Shown here: piece after piece, positions 11,772-19,912 of the stretch
Layout of the letters: each line of letters opens with the position of its first letter
Numbering within the stretch: the stretch's first letter is position 1
IMG/VR virus record: IMGVR_UViG_3300021405_000017
Span: 1 to 52,547 of that record
Source: a virus
Lineage: Duplodnaviria > Caudoviricetes
DNA: 52,547 bases
Strand: one strand, 5' to 3'
Notes under the pieces: generated by a model
What the model was told of the DNA's origin: nothing
Seen by the model: the letters and a program-made list of their open reading frames with translations, nothing else
Databases searched by the model: none
Made by a program: the position numbers and the translations under genes

Positions 11772-11974
11772 GTTTTCTAAACCGTTTTCTAAACCGCCCC
11801 GACGGTTTAAAATAAACCGCCCTAAGTTATTGAAAAGATTGGCTGGGGGACCTGGATTCGAACCAAGATTGACGGAGTCAGAGGCCGTTGTTCTTCCTTG
11901 ATTTTATTGGGAAAGGTTTTTTAAACCGCGATTTTTGGCCCTAAAGAGATCAATGGGTTGCGCTCGGTTTAGAA
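11772..11974. mobile_element. attP: core = 3' half of tRNA-Gln(CTG) (11840-11884, minus strand) with arm-type repeats
   Basis: Minus strand CTCTGAC-TCCGT-CAATCTTGGTTCGAATCCAGGTCCCCCAGCCA gives anticodon loop CTG, T-arm and CCA end. TAAACCG-containing repeats at 11772, 11784, 11803(rc), 11917 and 11965(rc); adjacent to the integrase. Confidence 0.9.
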
Positions 11975-13070
11975 TACGATTTTCGCCCGCCTCGTAGACT
12001 TCAAATTTAGCCATCGCTGCGCGCGCGACGCTCAGGTCAAGGTTCACATAACCAGCGAGCGAAGAGCGCTTTGTGCCGCTCTCCAAACCATGCCCGGTAA
12101 TGCTGGCGATCTCGATCGTGGTGCAGCCGGCGCGTCCCATGCGTGACGCGGCGGTCCCTCGTAGATCATGGAACGTGACGCCGCCTTTCCGGCTGCTTGG
12201 CACGCCCGCCTTGATACAGGTCTTACGCCACATGACCCGAAAGCCATCCGGCGTCCACGGCTCGCCGCTCTGGTTGACCAGCATGAGCTCATCTTTGCGG
12301 GGTGTCGCGTCGAGGATCGCCCTCAGCGGCGCCGCCACCGGGACGACGATATCGACGTCGGTCTTGCCTTGAGTCAGCGCGATCACGTCGCCGTCGTATG
12401 CGGTCCATGGCAGCCGGAGGAGATCGCCTTGTCGCTGCAAGGTCCAGAATGCGAGGGCCATCGCCAGCGACAATTCCGGCGAGGCGGCTGCCCTGAACGC
12501 CGCCATTTGGCCCTCGGTCCAGACCTTGTGTTTCCGACTCGTGCTGTAGAGTTTCTCGACGCCCGAGCGAGCGCAAGGATTGAACTCGATCTCGCCCCGC
12601 GTCGTCGCGAAATTCAAAACGATATTCAGGACGACCCAGGCATAGTCGGCCTGCCGGTCTGATTTCTTAGCGAGCTGATCGCGCCAGCGGAGGAAAATCC
12701 CTCGCGCCCGATTCTTGACCCCCAGGGCGATGATCGGCATCTGGCGATGTTCGGTGGGAACGGCGGCCAGGAGCTTGCGATAGTCGCGCTGTGTCCGCTC
12801 TTTCCGCTTCCGAAATTCGGGGCTGTCGAGATAAAGGTCAATCAGCCATTCGAGCGTCTTGCCGGCGGTCGCGCGCGGCTCGTTGGAGTTGGCGATCGGA
12901 CCCGCCGCCTTGATTGCCAGCGCCTCCGCCAGCGCGCGCCTGAACTCAGGCGAGCCTTCCGGCCCAGGTAGCTTCGGGCCGCCCTGCCACGCGTAGAGGT
13001 AGAGAACGGTCGTTCCATCGGCGAGTTTTTTGGGGACGCGGTGAATCCCCCCTTTACTTGGACGTCCCAT
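11904..13070 (-). CDS. int: Tyrosine recombinase (phage integrase)
   Basis: Catalytic R (LQRQGD), K (QGKT), HDLR, GH and Y (AGYV); next to attP. Confidence 0.95.
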   Translation of the reverse strand: MGRPSKGGIHRVPKKLADGTTVLYLYAWQGGPKLPGPEGSPEFRRALAEALAIKAAGPIANSNEPRATAGKTLEWLIDLYLDSPEFRKRKERTQRDYRKLLAAVPTEHRQMPIIALGVKNRARGIFLRWRDQLAKKSDRQADYAWVVLNIVLNFATTRGEIEFNPCARSGVEKLYSTSRKHKVWTEGQMAAFRAAASPELSLAMALAFWTLQRQGDLLRLPWTAYDGDVIALTQGKTDVDIVVPVAAPLRAILDATPRKDELMLVNQSGEPWTPDGFRVMWRKTCIKAGVPSSRKGGVTFHDLRGTAASRMGRAGCTTIEIASITGHGLESGTKRSSLAGYVNLDLSVARAAMAKFEVYEAGENRILNRAQPIDLFRAKNRGLKNLSQ

Positions 13071-13266: not shown

Positions 13267-13481
13267 CGTCGCTCGCCCTTCCCCGTCGCGGAATCGGCCC
13301 TTTCGCTTATGGCGGGAAGCCCCGCCGGGCGACGCGCCCCCGGGCGCGGTGTCTCACACTTCGCCCGAGCGGTCCGCGAAGACAAGAGGGCGCCGCGCAC
13401 AATTTGCGCTCCGTCCACGGGAATAGGCGCGGCCTGGTCCGATTCAATTCTCATCACCACGCCGCGCCTCCTTCCGTCTCA

Positions 13482-13977
13482 GCCGGCCCAGCCCCGCCTC
13501 GCCTTGCCAGATCAAGCCTAGTCACACCGCGCCTGGTCCAGCCTCGCCGGCCCCGCAAGCCGCGCCATGCCAGGCCACGCCTTGCCTCGCCAGGCCTCAC
13601 CATTCCGGCCGCGCCGAGCCCGGCCTTGCCTAGCCACGCCACGCCGCGCCAGACCCCGCCGCGCCGGCCTTGCCTTGCCTCGCCGGGCCTAGTCGCGCCC
13701 GGCCGCACCGAGCCTGGCCGAGCCCGGCCGTGCCGCGCCCCGCCGAGCCCTGCCTGCCTCGCCCCACCTCGCCAGGTCCAGCCTTGCCAGGCCTTGCCCC
13801 ACGCCGCACCTGCCTTGCCCTGCCTCGCCAAGTCGCGCCCGGCCTCGCCGGACCCAGCCCAGCCTGGCCACGCCTGCCTTGCCACGCCCAGCCTCACCGG
13901 GGCCGGCCGCGCCTTGTCTAGCCTAGCCATGCCTGGTCCGGCCGCGCCGTGCCGCGCCTGCCTTGCCTCGCCTCGTC
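13482..13977 (-). ncRNA. GGY-NN pentamer array 1 (about 7 putative guide units)
   Basis: Strict 5-nt periodicity (plus strand RCCNN, minus strand GGYNN) with 4-nt steps at 13482, 13546, 13604, 13663, 13752, 13808, 13872 and 13956. Intergenic, starting at the upstream gene's stop codon. RNA status inferred. Confidence 0.8.
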
Positions 13978-14280
13978 TCATACGGGCGAATCGAGCCGTT
14001 TGAACTCGCCTCGCCGTAGCTCGATGGCCGGGACACTCCGGATCTCGCTGCGCCGCGCCTTGATGACGAATTCGCGCCATTCTCGCCGCTGCTCCCGCTC
14101 TAAGCCGCGTACTAGGTCAGCCTGATATTTCTCCGACAACGCGCGCTTCACCCAAGCGTCGAACGGCAGCCGAGCCGCAGCTGCCGCCTCCTCGAACGCC
14201 TGCATGATCGGCGAGGCAAGGCGAATGTGGAGCGTCTTGCCGCCCACCTCGTCGTCATTGTCATTGATGGGTTCGTTCAT
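13978..14280 (-). CDS. Small hypothetical protein (possible RHH/HicB-like DNA-binding) between arrays 1 and 2
   Basis: AAGGAG RBS; TLHIRL...AAAAARLPFDAWVKRAL. Confidence 0.6.
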   Translation of the reverse strand: MNEPINDNDDEVGGKTLHIRLASPIMQAFEEAAAAARLPFDAWVKRALSEKYQADLVRGLEREQRREWREFVIKARRSEIRSVPAIELRRGEFKRLDSPV

Positions 14281-14301
14281 GACCCTCTCCTTTTCACTTT
14301 T

Positions 14302-15777
14302 GCCCGCCTTGCCTGCCTTGCCTTGCCGAGCCTTGTCGGACCCAGCCGGGACACGCCAAGCCTCGCCATGCAACGTCCCGCCGCGCCTGCCTTGCCATGT
14401 CGGGCCTAGCCGGGTCGGATCTTGCCGAACCCCGCCAAGCCTCGCCTCGCCCGGCCCGGTCAAGCCACGCCTGCCTTTGCCTTGCCATGCCTGGCCTTGC
14501 CCAGCCGCACCGTGCCGAACCCGGTCGGACCCGGCCAAGCCTGCCATGCCAGACCTCGCCTCGCCGCGCCTTGCCAAGCCTCGCCAAACCCGGCCATGTC
14601 GCATCCGGCCGCGCCTGCCTCGCCCCGCCTTGCCTCGCCGCGCCCTGCCCAGCCCGGCCAGGCCGAATCGTACCGGGTCTAGTCATGCCCCGCCGGCCTC
14701 GCCTTGCCCCGCCAGGCCCAGTCTCGGCTCGTCCTGCCTCGCCTAGTCCCGCCCAGTCGCGCCCGACCATGTCAGGCCGTGCCCGGTCCCGTCTTGCCGT
14801 GCCGCGCCTTGCCAGGCCTGCCTCGCCATGCCTCGCCAAGTCGCGCCTTGCCTCACCGCGTCTGGCCCGGCCTTGCCGCGCCAGGTCTCGCCGTGTCGCG
14901 CCTGCCTTGCCTTGCCTTGCCCGGCCCCGCCTCGCCGGGTCCCGCCATGCCTGCCTCGCCTCACCCCATCGTGCCGGGCCAAGGCGTGTCCCGACATGCC
15001 TCGGCATGCCAGGCCCGGCCCGGCCGGACCTCGCCTGCCTAGCCTCGCCCGGTCGCGCCGAGTCGAGCCTAGCCTCGCCGCGCCCCGCCGTACCGTGCCC
15101 GGCCGGGTCATGCCTGCCTCGCCCCGCCGCGCCAGCGCCATGCCAAGCCTTGCCGAGTCGCGCCTGGTCGTGCCTGGCCCGGCCAGGCCCAGCCTGGCCA
15201 TGCCTGCGTTGCCTTGCCTCATCAGGTCAGGCCATGCCTCGCCTCGCCCAGCCTCGCCTCGCCTCGCCTGTCTGGCCATGCTTCGCCTCGTCACATCATG
15301 CCGCGCCGGATCAAGCCTCGCCCGGTCCCGCCGTGCCGTGCCTGACCCCGCCTCATCAGGTCTGGCCATGCCTGCCTCGCCTCGCTGCGCCGGGGCTCGC
15401 CCGGCCAAGCCGGGTCGAGTCCCGCCTGGCCCCGCCTAGCCTGCCTTGCCGTGTCAGGCCTCGTCACGCCTCGCCGTGTCCGGCCCAGCCTAGTCTGGCC
15501 ATGCCTGCCGTGTCCGGCCCAAACCAAGCCTCGCCTTGCCGCGCCTTGCCTCGCCACGCCTGCCTTGCCCGGCCAGGCCAAGCCTTGTCACGTCGCACTG
15601 CATCCCGCCTCGCCTGCCTTGCCTGGCCTCGCCAGGTCTCGCCGCCCTTGTCCTGCCCAGCCTCGCCTGCCTTGTCAGGCCACGCCTAGCCGGACCGGGC
15701 CGGGCCTAGCCTTGCCTCGCCGCATCTGGCCCGGCTCTGTCATGCCAAGCCTGGCCTTGCCTGCCTTGCCGTGTCAG
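14302..15777 (-). ncRNA. GGY-NN pentamer array 2 (about 19 putative guide units)
   Basis: About 1.47 kb of pentamers. GGCAGGC-type junctions at 14311, 14385, 14469, 14539, 14613, 14692, 14816, 14900, 14949, 15033, 15112, 15202, 15266, 15370, 15439, 15503, 15558, 15612, 15665 and 15759. Confidence 0.8.
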
Positions 15778-16316
15778 GCGGCGGTTCGTGAGCCGCCGCC
15801 CTTGCCTTTGCCGCCTTTGCCGCCGCCGGCCTTGCCCGCACCTTTGCTCGCAGCCTTGGCGGCGCGGGCTCGTTCGGCGATGGTTTCGAGGTTGAGCAAC
15901 ATGGTGTCCAAGTCTGGACCGACGCCCAGGACGAGGGCGACCTTTCGCGCCCGCTCTATAGCGGCGGCGATGCGGTCAACCTCGTCCTCGAGGACTCGCA
16001 GCGCCCGCGCGCGCTGACCTTTGAACGAGGTCAATTCGCAAGAGGTCTGCGTTTTCGGCGCTCGATCGGGATCGACAATGTAGTAGGGCACTACGATGGT
16101 TTCGGTCTCCGTGATGACCTCAAACCGGACGTAACGGATCAGGGTGCGGGCCTGCTCGATCCAATGCTGTTGCGCCGCCTTTTTTACGTCCCATTCGAAG
16201 TCTTCATGGATTGGAGAGCCGGGAGGCCGAGCCGCTTCGACCACCTTCTCAGGCTCAAGACGCCCGCTGGAGTCTTCCAGCGAGCGAATAAAGGCGGCCT
16301 TGGCCGCCGACATCAT
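15774..16316 (-). CDS. Partner protein of the RAMP-like gene (function unknown)
   Basis: LEPEKVVEAARPPGSPIHEDFEWD..AAQQHWIEQARTLIR motif; ATGA-coupled to the RAMP-like gene; array 2 begins at its stop codon. Confidence 0.75.
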   Translation of the reverse strand: MMSAAKAAFIRSLEDSSGRLEPEKVVEAARPPGSPIHEDFEWDVKKAAQQHWIEQARTLIRYVRFEVITETETIVVPYYIVDPDRAPKTQTSCELTSFKGQRARALRVLEDEVDRIAAAIERARKVALVLGVGPDLDTMLLNLETIAERARAAKAASKGAGKAGGGKGGKGKGGGSRTAA

Positions 16317-17197
16317 TGCGACAGCCCCACCTCGTCGCCGCCGCCATTGCTCTTAGGCGGGCGCTTGCCGTTTGCGGCTTTCGGCGTCTTGCCCTTTGAC
16401 GCCTTGCCGCCCTCGCGCTGAGAGCTAGCCTCGCGCCGGATGATCTCGCTCTCGTACCACACCCACAATTCTTCGCTGTCGATATCGCTCGCCTCCGGGT
16501 TATCGTAGGCCGCCTGTTGCACCTTACGGCCGCCGTTCTTGACGATATCGAGCCAGCGCGGGTCACGCGCATCGACGACCTCCCAGCCGCCGTTGTTGAA
16601 GGTGCCCTTCTCTGTTCGCCCGTCGCCGATGCCGGTCACATCGCCGGCGTTCGACATCAAGTTGACGATCGCCCGCTCGGTCGTCAGCGTCTTGATGAAT
16701 TGGACGGTGAGTTTCACCGCCCATGTTTTGAACATCGCGCGGGTTCGAATGTCGGGCACGCGCTTCATGCCCTCAAGGCGGACCCAATCCATGTAGAGGT
16801 AGGGCTTGCCATAGACGTGGACCGTCTGGTCGACCACCTGCACCAGACAGCCGATCTCAGTCTTCGTTGCACCTGGCGTGCGGAGCGCCGCGGAACCGAG
16901 CGCCTTTTTGAAAGCGCCGGTAGGGAAGTGAAAAAGCGTAGGCGCGCTATCGTCGCGGCACCGATACATTGTGTCGCGGAATTCAGCGAGCGGGTCATGT
17001 TTCAAAATGACCTGCTTCTCGGCGTTGTTTTTAGCGCGCGACGGAAGCAACAGCTGCTGCTTCGCTTTCGCGCTCGGCCGATTCATCACCAGGGGCGCCG
17101 TGCCCAGAAGATGGAAGACAACGTAGCCTCGCTCGAAGCGCTTAAGCTCCGAGACCATCTCGGTGGTGTCGCGTGTTTTACTGGGTTTGGTAGCCAT
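16313..17197 (-). CDS. Stand-alone RAMP/Cas7(Csm3)-like RNA-binding protein (Vipr-like)
   Basis: N-terminal LLGTAPLVM (cf. RAMP TxSPLxIG), FHFPTGAFKKAL (cf. YIPGSSLKGAL) and C-terminal Gly-rich loop GIGDGRTEKGTFNNGGWEV. Flanked by pentamer arrays; AGGAGG RBS. Confidence 0.75.
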   Translation of the reverse strand: MATKPSKTRDTTEMVSELKRFERGYVVFHLLGTAPLVMNRPSAKAKQQLLLPSRAKNNAEKQVILKHDPLAEFRDTMYRCRDDSAPTLFHFPTGAFKKALGSAALRTPGATKTEIGCLVQVVDQTVHVYGKPYLYMDWVRLEGMKRVPDIRTRAMFKTWAVKLTVQFIKTLTTERAIVNLMSNAGDVTGIGDGRTEKGTFNNGGWEVVDARDPRWLDIVKNGGRKVQQAAYDNPEASDIDSEELWVWYESEIIRREASSQREGGKASKGKTPKAANGKRPPKSNGGGDEVGLSQ

Positions 17198-17252
17198 TCT
17201 CGTCTATGCTCCTCCTTTCGGAAAACGGCCTATCCGCTTTCCGTCGTCGCTT

Positions 17253-17279
17253 GGCCCGGGCGTCGTGAGCGCCCGGGCC
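17253..17279 (-). other. 10-bp perfect hairpin at the 3' end of array 3
   Basis: GGCCCGGGCG-7 nt-CGCCCGGGCC. Confidence 0.7.
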
Positions 17280-17299
17280 TTGCGTTTCGTTCGCGCTCA

Positions 17300-17939
17300 G
17301 CCTGCCGGCCGAGCCTTGCTTTGCCTCGCCATGCCGGGCCGTGCCACGCCGGGCCTGACCAGACCCAGCCCTGCCGAGCTGCGCCACGCCAAGTCGCGCC
17401 TGCCTCGCCCAGCCGGGCCGTGTCGGGCCTAGCCGCACCTCGCCCGGCCTCGCCAGGTCCGGCCGCGCCAAGCCTTGCCTGCGTCGCCGCGCCGTATCGC
17501 GCCGGACCGGGCCACGCCCCGCCAAGCCTCGGCCAGACAAGCCTCGCCAGGCCGCGCCTGCCTTGCCTCGCCATGCTGAGCCCAACCCCGCCAAGCCCCG
17601 CCGCGCCAGGTTCAGCCAGGTCCGGCCTCGCCTGCCTCGCCTTGCTCCGCCCCACCTCGCCGTGCCCCGTCACGCGTTGCCCGGTCGCGCCCAGCCGTGC
17701 CCCGTCTCGTCTAGCCATGCCTGCCTTGCCCCGCCGAGCCGGGTCTGGCCTTGCCCCGCCAAACCGCGCCACGCCAAGCCTGGCCTGACCCCGCCTGCGT
17801 CGCCTTGCCTCGCCTCGCCCGGCCAAGCCGCGCCCGGCCTCGCCATGTCGGGCTCAGCCCGGCCAGGCCTCGCCGGTCATGCCGCCCCTTATCGAGCCCA
17901 ACCCCGCCATGTCTGGCCAAACCGCGCCTGCCTTGCCTC
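17300..17939 (-). ncRNA. GGY-NN pentamer array 3 (about 8 putative guide units)
   Basis: Junctions at 17300, 17398, 17477, 17556, 17630, 17719, 17793, 17872 and 17926; spacings mostly 5n+4 (54-98 nt). Confidence 0.8.
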
Positions 17940-18966
17940 AAAGGAGGTTCTCCTCTGATTTGGCCGCAGAGGAGCGGCGAGGCGGTTCACCACCGTCCTC
18001 TGCGGCCGCATCCGGCGCGGGTGGTTGTGGCCCGGCGGGAGGGGGATTCTCCGCCGTTTGAGCCGCGCCGGAATCTAAGTTCGGGGATAGGTCAGTAGCG
18101 CCGGCTGCCCCGGCGAGCGCGTTCAGCTTCGAGGACAGGCCTTTCAGGGCAGGGCCTCGGTCGGCTTTCGGTTCTGGAAACAGCGTCTCGACTGTCGACT
18201 CGCCAGACTTGATCGCCTGCCGCATCGCGGTCAGCGTAATCAGATCGTCGAGGCCGACGTCCTCGATCCCCGGAACCTCAAGCGCGTTGAAGACGCGCTC
18301 GGGGGTAACGCCCCAGGCCGCGAAAGACCTGACCGCTACGTCCCGGCGCTCAGAGAGCGTCTTGACGTCGCCGGCGATCACCCGCTCGACCGACTGATAG
18401 GCTCGCCGCCAGATCGCCTTGGGCACGCCGCGCATGATCGCGTTGCGAAGCGCGATCGAACACGCGGCCTGGCCGGTCACCATGATTAAATCGTCGTCGT
18501 AAATCCGGCCATGCTTGTCGAAGATACGCCGGCGCACCCGTGACGTGGTGACGCGGCCCGTCTCCAAATCGTGGAAGACGCCCTCGGCCTCGACGAACTT
18601 TTCAATCCGATCGATGTGGATGACGCGGGAGGCGTCGCGGCAATTGCCCCATTGCGAGGCGACGATCTCGGCGAAACGTATGGACGGACCGCGAATCGCC
18701 TTTTTGCCGCGAGGCAGCGCATAGACGCATTCTTCCGCGGTCTCGTCGTCGAGCGTCGCCAGGCCCAGGATGTCGCTCATCACCTTCTTTTGCGATCGTG
18801 GATAGGCGTGCGCGGTATTGACCTGCTGATCGACCTCGGCGCGGCTGAGCGCGATCGCCAGGCTCATTTGGCTTTGCGCCGGACCGGCGTCGATCGTCGC
18901 CAGCGGGCCGAAGTCGTCCGTCTGTTCGAGATCCGTTTCGACGGGCTTAGCCATTGGCTTTTTCAT
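17938..18966 (-). CDS. Putative single-strand annealing/recombination protein
   Basis: DQQVNTAHAYPRS...YALPRG...GPSIRFAE..ASQWGN; adjacent to the YqaJ exonuclease. Function inferred from context. Confidence 0.6.
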   Translation of the reverse strand: MKKPMAKPVETDLEQTDDFGPLATIDAGPAQSQMSLAIALSRAEVDQQVNTAHAYPRSQKKVMSDILGLATLDDETAEECVYALPRGKKAIRGPSIRFAEIVASQWGNCRDASRVIHIDRIEKFVEAEGVFHDLETGRVTTSRVRRRIFDKHGRIYDDDLIMVTGQAACSIALRNAIMRGVPKAIWRRAYQSVERVIAGDVKTLSERRDVAVRSFAAWGVTPERVFNALEVPGIEDVGLDDLITLTAMRQAIKSGESTVETLFPEPKADRGPALKGLSSKLNALAGAAGATDLSPNLDSGAAQTAENPPPAGPQPPAPDAAAEDGGEPPRRSSAAKSEENLL

Positions 18967-19912
18967 GTTGCGCTGCCTTGATTGAGACTTGTCGCCAGAT
19001 GGACGCCTTCACCTGGTAGGCGCCGCGGCGGCGGGTCGGGGCGACGATCAGGCGCCCGTCAGGCAGCCGGCCGCGCTCGGCGAGCCCGAGCTTGGCGACA
19101 ATTTCCGTGTCGATGATTTTGCGCTCTTTGGCCGCCGCGGCTCCGTCATCCTCGCGCGCCTTGAACGCCTCGCGTTGCGTAACAAGGTCGAGGATGCGGT
19201 TGTCGGCGCGTAGGTCGACTTCGGTGTCTTCCGCCTCAGCGTAGAGGCGCGCGATTACATCGGCGTCGTCAGCGTAATGGGGTGGATAGGAATCGCCCTC
19301 CGCGACGCGGCGCCAGAAGTCGGCGGTGAGCTCGCGTAGTTTCACCATGATCGCTGACTCGATCGGTATCTCCTCGACGTGGGCCGTCCACTCCGACATT
19401 TCCAATACCGCCACCGCGGCCCATGTGGCGCCGGTCAGAGAGGCCTCAACAATCGCCTGGACGGCGATCCAAAGCGGGACTTCAATTTCGCCACCCGCCT
19501 GCCAAGTGCGGCGGAAGGCCTCGCCCGCGGTTTTCACCTGCAGAACGCCCAACCCTTCGATGTCAGGACAGGTGACGAAGGCGTCGGGCGTGGCGCCGAT
19601 CCGGGCCACTGGATCGCGGTAGTAATGATCGCCAGGAACGATCGTCCAATCAGGGTAGGTTTCCGCGACCATGTTGAGGACGACGTGCTCGAGGTCGCGC
19701 CCGCGCCGCATCGCCGGCGTCTCATGGACGCGCTCTTCGACGCGCCCGCTCTTAACGGCCCACAACTCGAAGGCGGATTTGTAGGGATGGATCGCATCGG
19801 CGAGCAAAGCCGCGATTTCAGATGCGGTGACATCCTGCCGACGCCATTTGAGCCACTCGGCGTGATCGGTGATCGGCCGCTTTTCGATTGTCTGCTCGGC
19901 GAACGCGTTCAT
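18947..19912 (-). CDS. YqaJ/lambda-exonuclease family viral recombinase nuclease
   Basis: EWLKWRR..VTASE, RGRDLE, IGATPDA, VLQVKT, AVQ motifs. Confidence 0.85.
   Translation of the reverse strand: MNAFAEQTIEKRPITDHAEWLKWRRQDVTASEIAALLADAIHPYKSAFELWAVKSGRVEERVHETPAMRRGRDLEHVVLNMVAETYPDWTIVPGDHYYRDPVARIGATPDAFVTCPDIEGLGVLQVKTAGEAFRRTWQAGGEIEVPLWIAVQAIVEASLTGATWAAVAVLEMSEWTAHVEEIPIESAIMVKLRELTADFWRRVAEGDSYPPHYADDADVIARLYAEAEDTEVDLRADNRILDLVTQREAFKAREDDGAAAAKERKIIDTEIVAKLGLAERGRLPDGRLIVAPTRRRGAYQVKASIWRQVSIKAAQHEKANG

What the first reader, a model, noticed from the sequence alone, without database searches (positions are those of the whole stretch)
15116..15201. Guide unit decodes to a tyrosine-integrase catalytic box: HWLRHTHAS(N/K)LIAAG
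Minus-strand NN at ca tg ct cg ca ac ca gc tc aa tt at gc gc gg reads I-H-(W/C)-L-R-H-T-H-A-S-(N/K)-L-I-A-A-G, with one 6-nt pentamer irregularity. This is the canonical HxLRHT box II. The resident integrase has HDLRGTAAS instead, so the target would be a different temperate element.
Basis: partly seen in the sequence, partly recalled or inferred. Interest (0 to 1): 0.8.

Follow-up and report, generated by a model that had tools for sequence, protein, structure and literature searches.

The report
VIPR guide RNA aimed at integrase
The stretch is one guide in a phage's VIPR guide-RNA array (a recently described CRISPR-like system that reads two of every three target bases), and its code spells the catalytic box of a tyrosine integrase from some other mobile element.

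Summary
On the minus strand, 15115-15204 is a run of GGY+NN pentamers whose NN series is AT CA TG CT CG CA AC CA GC TC AA TT AT GC(T) GC GG GA.

The locus is a VIPR system, described in 2026 preprints. It has a Vipr RAMP protein (16313-17197), an accessory gene, and three co-oriented GGYNN arrays holding 32 guides of 9 or more repeats.

The published rule is NN pairs, every third target base skipped, usually the wobble base.

The box II reading is not chance:
- The motif occurs once, against 5e-5 expected per shuffle.
- Natural integrases carry IHDLRHTHASKLIAAGW, compatible at 15 of 17 positions, against a shuffle maximum of 10.

The resident integrase matches only 8 of 17, so there is no self-targeting.

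No DNA target reaching the published 80% NN threshold was found. The best is 13 of 17, in a 66% GC viral contig.

Verdict: a new member of a known kind.

The parts
15115..15204 (-). The vrRNA guide unit of the finding. It has 17 GGY+NN repeats (15 GGC, 2 GAC, one of the GGC repeats 6 letters long) plus the terminal four-letter GGCA unit. The NN code spells [IM]H[CW]LRHTHAS[KN][FL][IM]AAG[DE].
15134..15139 (-). The single 6-letter repeat (GGCGCT on the minus strand) inside the guide. The match to the integrase family continues in register across it.
14300..15773 (-). vrRNA array 2, downstream of vipr-vap. It has about 299 units, with 22 four-letter punctuation units (mostly GGCA on the minus strand).
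17297..17938 (-). vrRNA array 3, directly upstream of vipr. It has about 130 units.
13480..13978 (-). vrRNA array 1. It has about 101 units.
16313..17197 (-). vipr gene: a 294-aa RAMP (Cas7/Csm3-like) protein homologous to SUSP1 Vipr.
15774..16316 (-). Putative vap (vipr-accessory) gene, 180 aa, helical. It keeps its place directly after vipr in relatives.
11904..13070 (-). Resident tyrosine integrase. Its box II (FHDLRGTAASRMGRAGC, about 12123-12173) matches the guide at only 8 of 17 NN.
13978..14280 (-). 100-aa ORF between arrays 1 and 2. It has no family match, and whether it belongs to the system is unknown.

Best explanation
The window is a temperate phage genome carrying a VIPR (Viral Interference Programmable Repeat) locus.

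Inferred from the published systems: the minus strand is transcribed through three arrays of GGY+NN pentamers. One-letter register slips (GGCA followed by GGC) mark where one guide ends and the next begins, as in the 'staggered arrays' of the discovery paper. Vipr protomers (16313-17197) polymerise along each guide, one per pentamer. They bury GGY and present NN. The NN pairs bind double-stranded DNA while every third target base is skipped, and the bound filament blocks transcription.

Shown by the sequence: the guide at 15115-15204 is wobble-aligned to the box II catalytic motif (HxLRHTHAS..LIAAG, holding the catalytic Arg and His) of a tyrosine integrase family that is not the phage's own.

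Inferred function: it silences the integrase of a competing prophage, satellite or integrative element in the same host. The competitor cannot escape by synonymous changes.
For: Shown here:
1. The 294-aa protein folds as a RAMP. The model has pLDDT 84.4. All listed Foldseek PDB matches with E<=1e-3 (24 in total) are chains of CRISPR effector complexes, mostly type III Csm and type VII.
2. Its family profile hits PDB 36pp 'SUSP1 Vipr protein' at E=6.5e-7. Nothing else scores below E=0.5.
3. In the pairwise alignment, D192, R194 and R153 align with SUSP1 D177, R179 and R138. The cryo-EM paper names these as GGY-binding residues. D192 and R194 are invariant and R153 nearly invariant in 37 homologs.
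4. GGY+NN arrays occur in 70 of 111 related loci. Of 94 arrays, 92 lie on the gene's strand. One of the other two is L001, where the gene is also on the minus strand.
5. The same gene-plus-array pairing is present in Cheoctovirus mycobacteriophages.
6. A vap-like gene follows vipr, with 91 ORF hits among the 110 loci.
7. Guide decode.
8. Natural integrases: 8 of 85 are compatible at 15 of 17 positions and 13 at 14 of 17. Among 32 guides in two orientations, only this one beats its shuffles (15 against a maximum of 10 in 200 shuffles).
9. Best DNA match: L147, GC 0.66, 13 of 17 NN, sense strand, with skips on codon position 3.
10. Self match is 8 of 17, and that is the best anywhere in the window.

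From the papers: the 1-nt skip rule, wobble alignment, absence of a PAM, transcriptional silencing and competitor targets; a recombinase active site as a natural target.
Against: - No target reaching the paper's 80% NN threshold was found.
  - IMG/VR exact-seed scans gave at best 13 of 17.
  - There were 0 hits with up to 3 mismatches in 5, 401 and 251 genomes.
  - There was no excess of gapped matches in 1.1 Mb of related phage DNA.
- The integrase set was reached through a seed taken from the guide, so that comparison is partly circular. Only 8 positions were unforced, and 6 of them agree.
- The box II decode does not recur in 5657 units of 94 arrays from relatives.
- The unit has one 6-letter repeat and two GAC repeats, and its 17-18 repeats exceed the published 9-16.
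- There is no RNA evidence for transcription or processing in this phage.
- The equation of the four-letter units with the paper's 'staggered arrays' rests on a figure legend only.
Confidence: 0.75

Rival explanations
1. The locus is VIPR, but the integrase-like reading of this one unit is a coincidence. The guide's real target is something else, or it has none.
For: - The motif was recognised after the fact, among 32 guides read on two strands.
- No DNA target at 80% NN or more was found.
- The decode does not recur in relatives' arrays.
- The first two NN (AT CA) belong to a recurring unit start, GGCAT GGCCA, seen in 4 units of array 2.
Against: - Shuffles give 5e-5 for the motif.
- Beyond the catalytic residues, the less conserved tail K-L-I-A-A-G and the preceding I also agree with a natural family.
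- The compatibility of 15 of 17 compares with a shuffle maximum of 10.
- The best gapped hit in the phage's own genome is its own integrase box II.
Confidence: 0.08
2. The unit is a decayed or inactive guide: a relic of a former integrase-directed guide that no longer assembles or binds.
For: - It has a 6-letter repeat at 15134-15139 and two GAC repeats.
- The best natural DNA match is only 76%.
- It is longer than the published 9-16 repeats.
Against: - GAC repeats make up 64 of 493 pentamers across all three arrays, so they are normal here.
- The paper itself notes frequent internal degeneracy of vrRNAs.
- The unit is identical in a second soil metagenome.
- The match to the integrase family stays in register across the 6-letter repeat.
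Confidence: 0.1
3. The arrays are not guides. They are structural repeat DNA, protein-coding pentapeptide repeats, or a sponge for an RNA-binding protein in which NN are mere spacers (as in TRAP-type binding sites).
For: - Long ORFs cross the arrays (for example 14397-15689 +, 430 aa).
- This was my own working idea before the fold result.
Against: - Stops in these frames need TA or TGA in the NN positions, so long ORFs are expected.
- Register slips occur every 10-20 units.
- The adjacent protein is a Vipr homolog.
- The published biochemistry and structures show that NN specify the target.
Confidence: 0.02

Closest known systems
VIPR systems (Vipr + vrRNA), type II of Escherichia phage SUSP1 and the P. 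fulva prophage (bioRxiv 10.64898/2026.04.26.720920 and 10.64898/2026.04.26.720927)
   Same: - A phage-encoded minimal RAMP with a G-loop and thumb. D192, R194 and R153 align with SUSP1 D177, R179 and R138.
- An adjacent accessory gene.
- Intergenic GGY/NN pentamer repeats on the gene's strand, both upstream and downstream of the genes.
- An NNx, wobble-aligned reading of a coding target.
- No self-target.
   Different: - The protein is 294 aa against 202 aa, and only about 70 residues align by sequence.
- SUSP1 W178 is G193 here, and 13% of repeats are GAC.
- There is no 3' tail or pseudoknot between guides. Guides abut, with a one-letter slip between them.
- There are 32 guides of 9 or more repeats in three arrays, against four vrRNAs in SUSP1.
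- The median guide length is 14 repeats.
'Staggered vrRNA arrays' of the VIPR discovery paper (legend of fig. S18)
   Same: The legend says that individual vrRNAs come from positions overlapping by 1 nt, and that the end of one marks the start of the next. Here GGCA followed by GGC can be read as GGCA[G]GCNN, two pentamers sharing one G. The same punctuation occurs in 92 of 94 arrays of relatives.
   Different: I could not see the figure or the supplementary tables, so the identity of the architecture and the VIPR type of this clade are inferred.
SUSP1 vrRNA4 against the excision recombinase of F5 satellites (bioRxiv 10.64898/2026.10.15.759431; passages read)
   Same: A guide wobble-aligned on active-site codons of a competitor's recombinase, so that escape would require breaking the enzyme.
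   Different: - There, the target gene, its 119 satellite variants and the phenotype are known. The protein-level matches reported for that recombinase are a P2 DNA invertase and a PICI-like integrase.
- Here the motif is tyrosine-recombinase box II, and the target element is not identified.
Class 1 CRISPR Cas7/Csm3 backbone filaments
   Same: The RRM/RAMP fold, one protomer per fixed-length RNA segment, and thumb-induced base flipping.
   Different: The period is 5 nt with only 2 pairing bases, against 6 nt with 5 pairing bases. There is no CRISPR repeat-spacer array, and no cas genes appear among the window proteins I scanned.

Membership tests
VIPR system | Vipr protein: a minimal RAMP (RRM core, G-loop, thumb) related to the characterised Vipr | tested here: met
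   - Foldseek: the matches with E<=1e-3 are chains of CRISPR effector complexes, mostly type III Csm and type VII.
- The family profile hits PDB 36pp SUSP1 Vipr at E=6.5e-7.
- GGY-contacting residues are conserved.
VIPR system | Tandem GGY/NN (YNNGG) pentamer repeats in the intergenic regions flanking vipr, on the same strand | tested here: met
   - 493 pentamers in three arrays. The constant part is GCC in 351, GTC in 64 and ACC in 32 on the + strand.
- All neighbouring genes are on the minus strand.
- In relatives, 92 of 94 arrays are co-oriented with the gene.
VIPR system | An adjacent vipr-accessory (vap) gene | tested here: inconclusive
   A conserved 180-aa gene follows vipr, with 91 ORF hits in the 110 loci. 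Its fold has no PDB match. I could not compare it with vap1-6 because the supplements are closed.
VIPR system | vrRNAs are expressed, processed and bound by Vipr | not testable with these tools
   This needs small-RNA sequencing and pull-down of Vipr-bound RNA from a strain that expresses the locus. No tool here can measure either.
VIPR system | Guides have natural NNx targets (at least 80% NN) in competing mobile elements and none in the guide's own genome | tested here: inconclusive
   - Own genome: the best match is 8 of 17, and there are 0 hits with up to 3 mismatches.
- Foreign: the best match is 13 of 17, or 76%.
- Only this guide was searched in public collections, and only by exact seeds.
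Tyrosine recombinase box II (as the guide's coded motif) | H-x-L-R-H-[TS]-x-A-[ST] with the catalytic Arg and His, followed by a hydrophobic stretch ending in G (consensus recalled) | tested here: met
   The decode is given. Pfam-annotated integrases (PF00589) read IHDLRHTHASKLIAAGW at the aligned place.

The most novel reading that the evidence does not exclude
The guide is aimed at the most constrained codons of a whole integrase family, not at one element. One vrRNA could then silence integration and excision of many unrelated competitors that share HxLRHTHAS..LIAAG. That would be family-level, amino-acid-level targeting. This clade's relaxed repeat (GRY, with Gly in place of SUSP1 Trp178) and long abutting guides of 14-18 repeats would define a distinct VIPR variant with its own assembly and mismatch rules.
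Probability: 0.25. Interest if true: 0.6.

Novelty: new member of a known kind. Interest (0 to 1): 0.4.

Why it matters
The finding shows that the VIPR logic published in 2026 can be read straight from raw sequence in an uncultured soil phage. It also gives a concrete, testable example in which a noncontiguous guide is aligned on the catalytic box of tyrosine integrases. That extends the one published case of recombinase active-site targeting.

The locus is rich material for asking how staggered arrays are processed, how much mismatch a long guide tolerates, and what a temperate phage chooses to silence. It has 32 guides of 9 or more repeats, abutting without tails, with GRY repeats.

It does not reveal a new kind of system.

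Tried and rejected
- Early ideas dropped after the fold result and the papers: coding pentapeptide repeats, G-quadruplex or i-motif DNA, an iteron or centromere array bound by the small RHH-looking protein, and a TRAP-like RNA sponge.
- Literature searches on 'mycobacteriophage + pentanucleotide' and 'Cas7-like + phage + tandem repeats' found nothing relevant. 'Cas7 / prophage / repeat RNA / filament' found VIPR.
- The VIA-align libraries were not available.
- The metagenome-contig scan gave no answer three times.
- No RNA holder was listed for the stretch. Only two soil DNA metagenomes hold it.
- Rfam gave only a sub-threshold isrL hit (16.4 bits against a gathering score of 35).
- Host assignment failed. 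TerL is at most 44% identical to Burkholderia and Ralstonia phages. The closest cultured-phage relatives of the matching integrase family are below 30% identical.
- The vap-like protein has no PDB fold match, and the ESM Atlas gave only unnamed viral clusters.
- The other 31 guides show no significant wobble-aligned match to the integrase family.
- A first version of the gapped-match script timed out.

Full report
**What is in the sequence**

The window is a whole 52.5-kb virus record. It carries a large terminase, a VapE-like primase, a RecE/YqaJ exonuclease and a tyrosine integrase.

Between minus-strand genes lie three blocks of NN[GA][CT]C pentamers on the + strand:
- about 13480-13978
- about 14300-15773
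- about 17297-17938

No other part of the window has them. Of 493 five-letter units, the constant part is GCC in 351, GTC in 64 and ACC in 32. On the minus strand this reads GGY (or GAY) followed by two free letters.

The blocks are punctuated by 39 four-letter units, mostly TGCC, followed by T[TC]GCC. These fall typically every 13-17 pentamers (median 14).

The unit of the finding lies between the four-letter units at 15115 and 15205.

**What the locus is**

The 294-aa protein at 16313-17197 has 87 homologs without any Pfam family. Its AlphaFold model has pLDDT 84.4 and pTM 0.77. All listed Foldseek matches in the PDB with E<=1e-3 (24 in total) are chains of CRISPR effector complexes, mostly type III Csm and type VII. 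TM-scores are 0.2-0.55 and identity is about 10%.

A literature search then turned up the VIPR preprints. A profile of the family hits PDB 36pp, 'SUSP1 Vipr protein', at E=6.5e-7, with nothing else below 0.5.

In the pairwise alignment, D192, R194 and R153 align with SUSP1 D177, R179 and R138. The cryo-EM paper says these three contact G1, Y3 and G2 of the repeat (Results read). D192 and R194 are invariant and R153 nearly invariant in 37 homologs. SUSP1 W178, which stacks on G2, is G193 here.

Evidence from relatives:
- Arrays of the same kind occur in 70 of 111 related loci. Of 94 arrays, 92 are on the gene's strand. One of the other two is L001, where the gene is also on the minus strand.
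- A conserved 180-aa gene follows vipr, with 91 ORF hits among 110 loci. Its model is helical and has no PDB match.
- The pairing also exists in Cheoctovirus mycobacteriophages such as Mattes, BobaPhett, DRBy19, Quico and Donkeykong.

**How it works, according to the papers**

I read the following:
- Discovery paper (10.64898/2026.04.26.720920): outline, Results, Methods sections 20 and 27, and passages.
- Structure paper (10.64898/2026.04.26.720927): outline and the first part of Results.
- Two further preprints (10.64898/2026.10.15.759431 and 10.64898/2026.10.21.760802): passages only.

They report these points:
- vrRNAs of 9-16 YNNGG repeats.
- One Vipr protomer per repeat, with GGY buried and NN presented.
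- A target read as NNx with every third base skipped, mostly the codon wobble base.
- No PAM.
- Transcriptional silencing.
- Natural targets in competing phages and satellites, defined as at least 80% NN match, with no self-targets.

A figure legend describes 'staggered' arrays in which neighbouring vrRNAs overlap by 1 nt. The GGCA-then-GGC slip here fits that if read as GGCA[G]GCNN. I could not see the figure, so this is an inference. In relatives, 92 of 94 arrays have such slips. The free letter is A in 383 of 574, and the slips most often fall 9-11 repeats apart.

**Is the integrase reading real?**

- *Shuffles.* The recalled box II motif occurs once. In 20,000 shuffles its mean count was 5e-5. 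This is a post hoc motif, so I looked for independent support.
- *Own genome.* The best gapped match of the guide anywhere in the phage's own genome is its own integrase box II, at 8 of 17 NN. That is far below 80%, and there is no hit with up to 3 mismatches.
- *First IMG/VR seed.* An exact seed over NN 2-10 found 14 loci. Thirteen are integrases reading [FM]HCLRHTHAS[MI]L.., from phages of 43-47% GC, at 12-13 of 17.
- *Second IMG/VR seed.* A seed allowing any residue at x found 17 loci: 12 low-GC integrases at 12 of 17, four non-integrase frames at 9 of 17, and L147.
- *L147.* This is a 4.2-kb viral contig of 66% GC. Its integrase reads PHDLRHTHASKLIAAGW and matches 13 of 17 NN, on the sense strand, with skips on codon position 3.
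- *L147 relatives in IMG/VR.* Five relatives match at 11 of 17.
- *Other seeds.* Three further seeds found only a chance hit, only L147, or nothing.
- *Protein level.* Among 85 homologs of this integrase family, 8 read IHDLRHTHASKLIAAGW (compatible at 15 of 17) and 13 are compatible at 14 of 17. One of the latter, P0162, has W at the x position.
- *Comparison with other guides.* Against these 85 proteins, the guide scores 15 while 200 shuffles reach at most 10. None of the other 31 guides, in either orientation, stands out.

The family was reached through a seed from the guide, so nine positions were forced. Of the eight unforced positions, six agree (I, L, I, A, A, G). The match also stays in register across the 6-letter repeat.

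**Results against the reading**

- No DNA target reaches 80% NN.
- There are 0 hits with up to 3 mismatches in 5, 401 and 251 sampled genomes.
- There is no excess of gapped matches in 1.1 Mb of related phage DNA, at spacing 3 or at the control spacings.
- The box II decode does not recur in 5657 units from relatives' arrays.
- The metagenome scan failed, and the host is unknown.
- Expression could not be examined.

**Conclusion**

The finding is a correct reading of one guide in a VIPR staggered array.

The most likely function is silencing the tyrosine integrase of a competing integrative element through its catalytic-box codons. This parallels the published SUSP1 guide against a satellite recombinase active site.

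It is a new member of a known kind. The target element remains to be found.

Noticed in passing
L001 2986-3268 (Mycobacterium phage Mattes 36721-36974); L126-L129: Cheoctovirus (cluster F-like) mycobacteriophages carry a vipr homolog (Mattes gp52) with a GGYNN array just upstream.

In BobaPhett, DRBy19 and Donkeykong, 'hypothetical protein' CDSs are annotated on top of the array.

The flanks, first units and last units are nearly identical between the phages. The internal units differ in number and NN content, which looks like unit-level turnover.

'Mycobacteri' does not occur in the main text of the two VIPR papers I searched for it.
   Followed up: partly
window 16313-17197 (residue G193) and all three arrays: SUSP1 Trp178, said to stack on G2 of the repeat, is Gly here. 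The family has G, F or W at this place. In this phage, 64 of 493 repeats have A at the second position (GAC). This may be a relaxed GRY specificity.
   Followed up: no
window 15040-15110 versus L147 3827-3871: The neighbouring guide has its best match (9 of 15 NN, shuffle p about 0.003 in 38 kb) in the same L147 integrase gene. The match lies over the codons for IETVLRTYAHQWDAAR, the catalytic Tyr region. However, it is antisense, with skips on codon position 2, so it is not wobble-aligned. It may be chance.
   Followed up: partly
window 11840-11894: Just downstream of the integrase gene, contig depth jumps to 485 and 209 in the two soil runs, and many short contigs diverge at 11883-11894. ARAGORN finds no tRNA in the window. 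This could be a widely shared short sequence, possibly the attP core or a piece of a host tRNA-like gene.
   Followed up: no
window 13480-17938: Guides here are longer (median 14 repeats between slips, up to 24) than in relatives (most often 9-11) and than the published 9-16. The phage carries 32 guides of 9 or more repeats, against four vrRNAs in SUSP1.
   Followed up: partly
window 13978-14280 and 17938-19912: A 100-aa ORF with no family match sits between arrays 1 and 2. Upstream of array 3 lie a 342-aa phrog_3657 protein and a RecE/YqaJ exonuclease. Whether any of these works with VIPR is unknown.
   Followed up: no
window 14397-15689 (+) and other ORFs across the arrays: ORFs of 200-430 aa run through the arrays on both strands. 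They are artefacts of the repeat: stops need TA or TGA in the NN positions. Gene callers may annotate them.
   Followed up: partly
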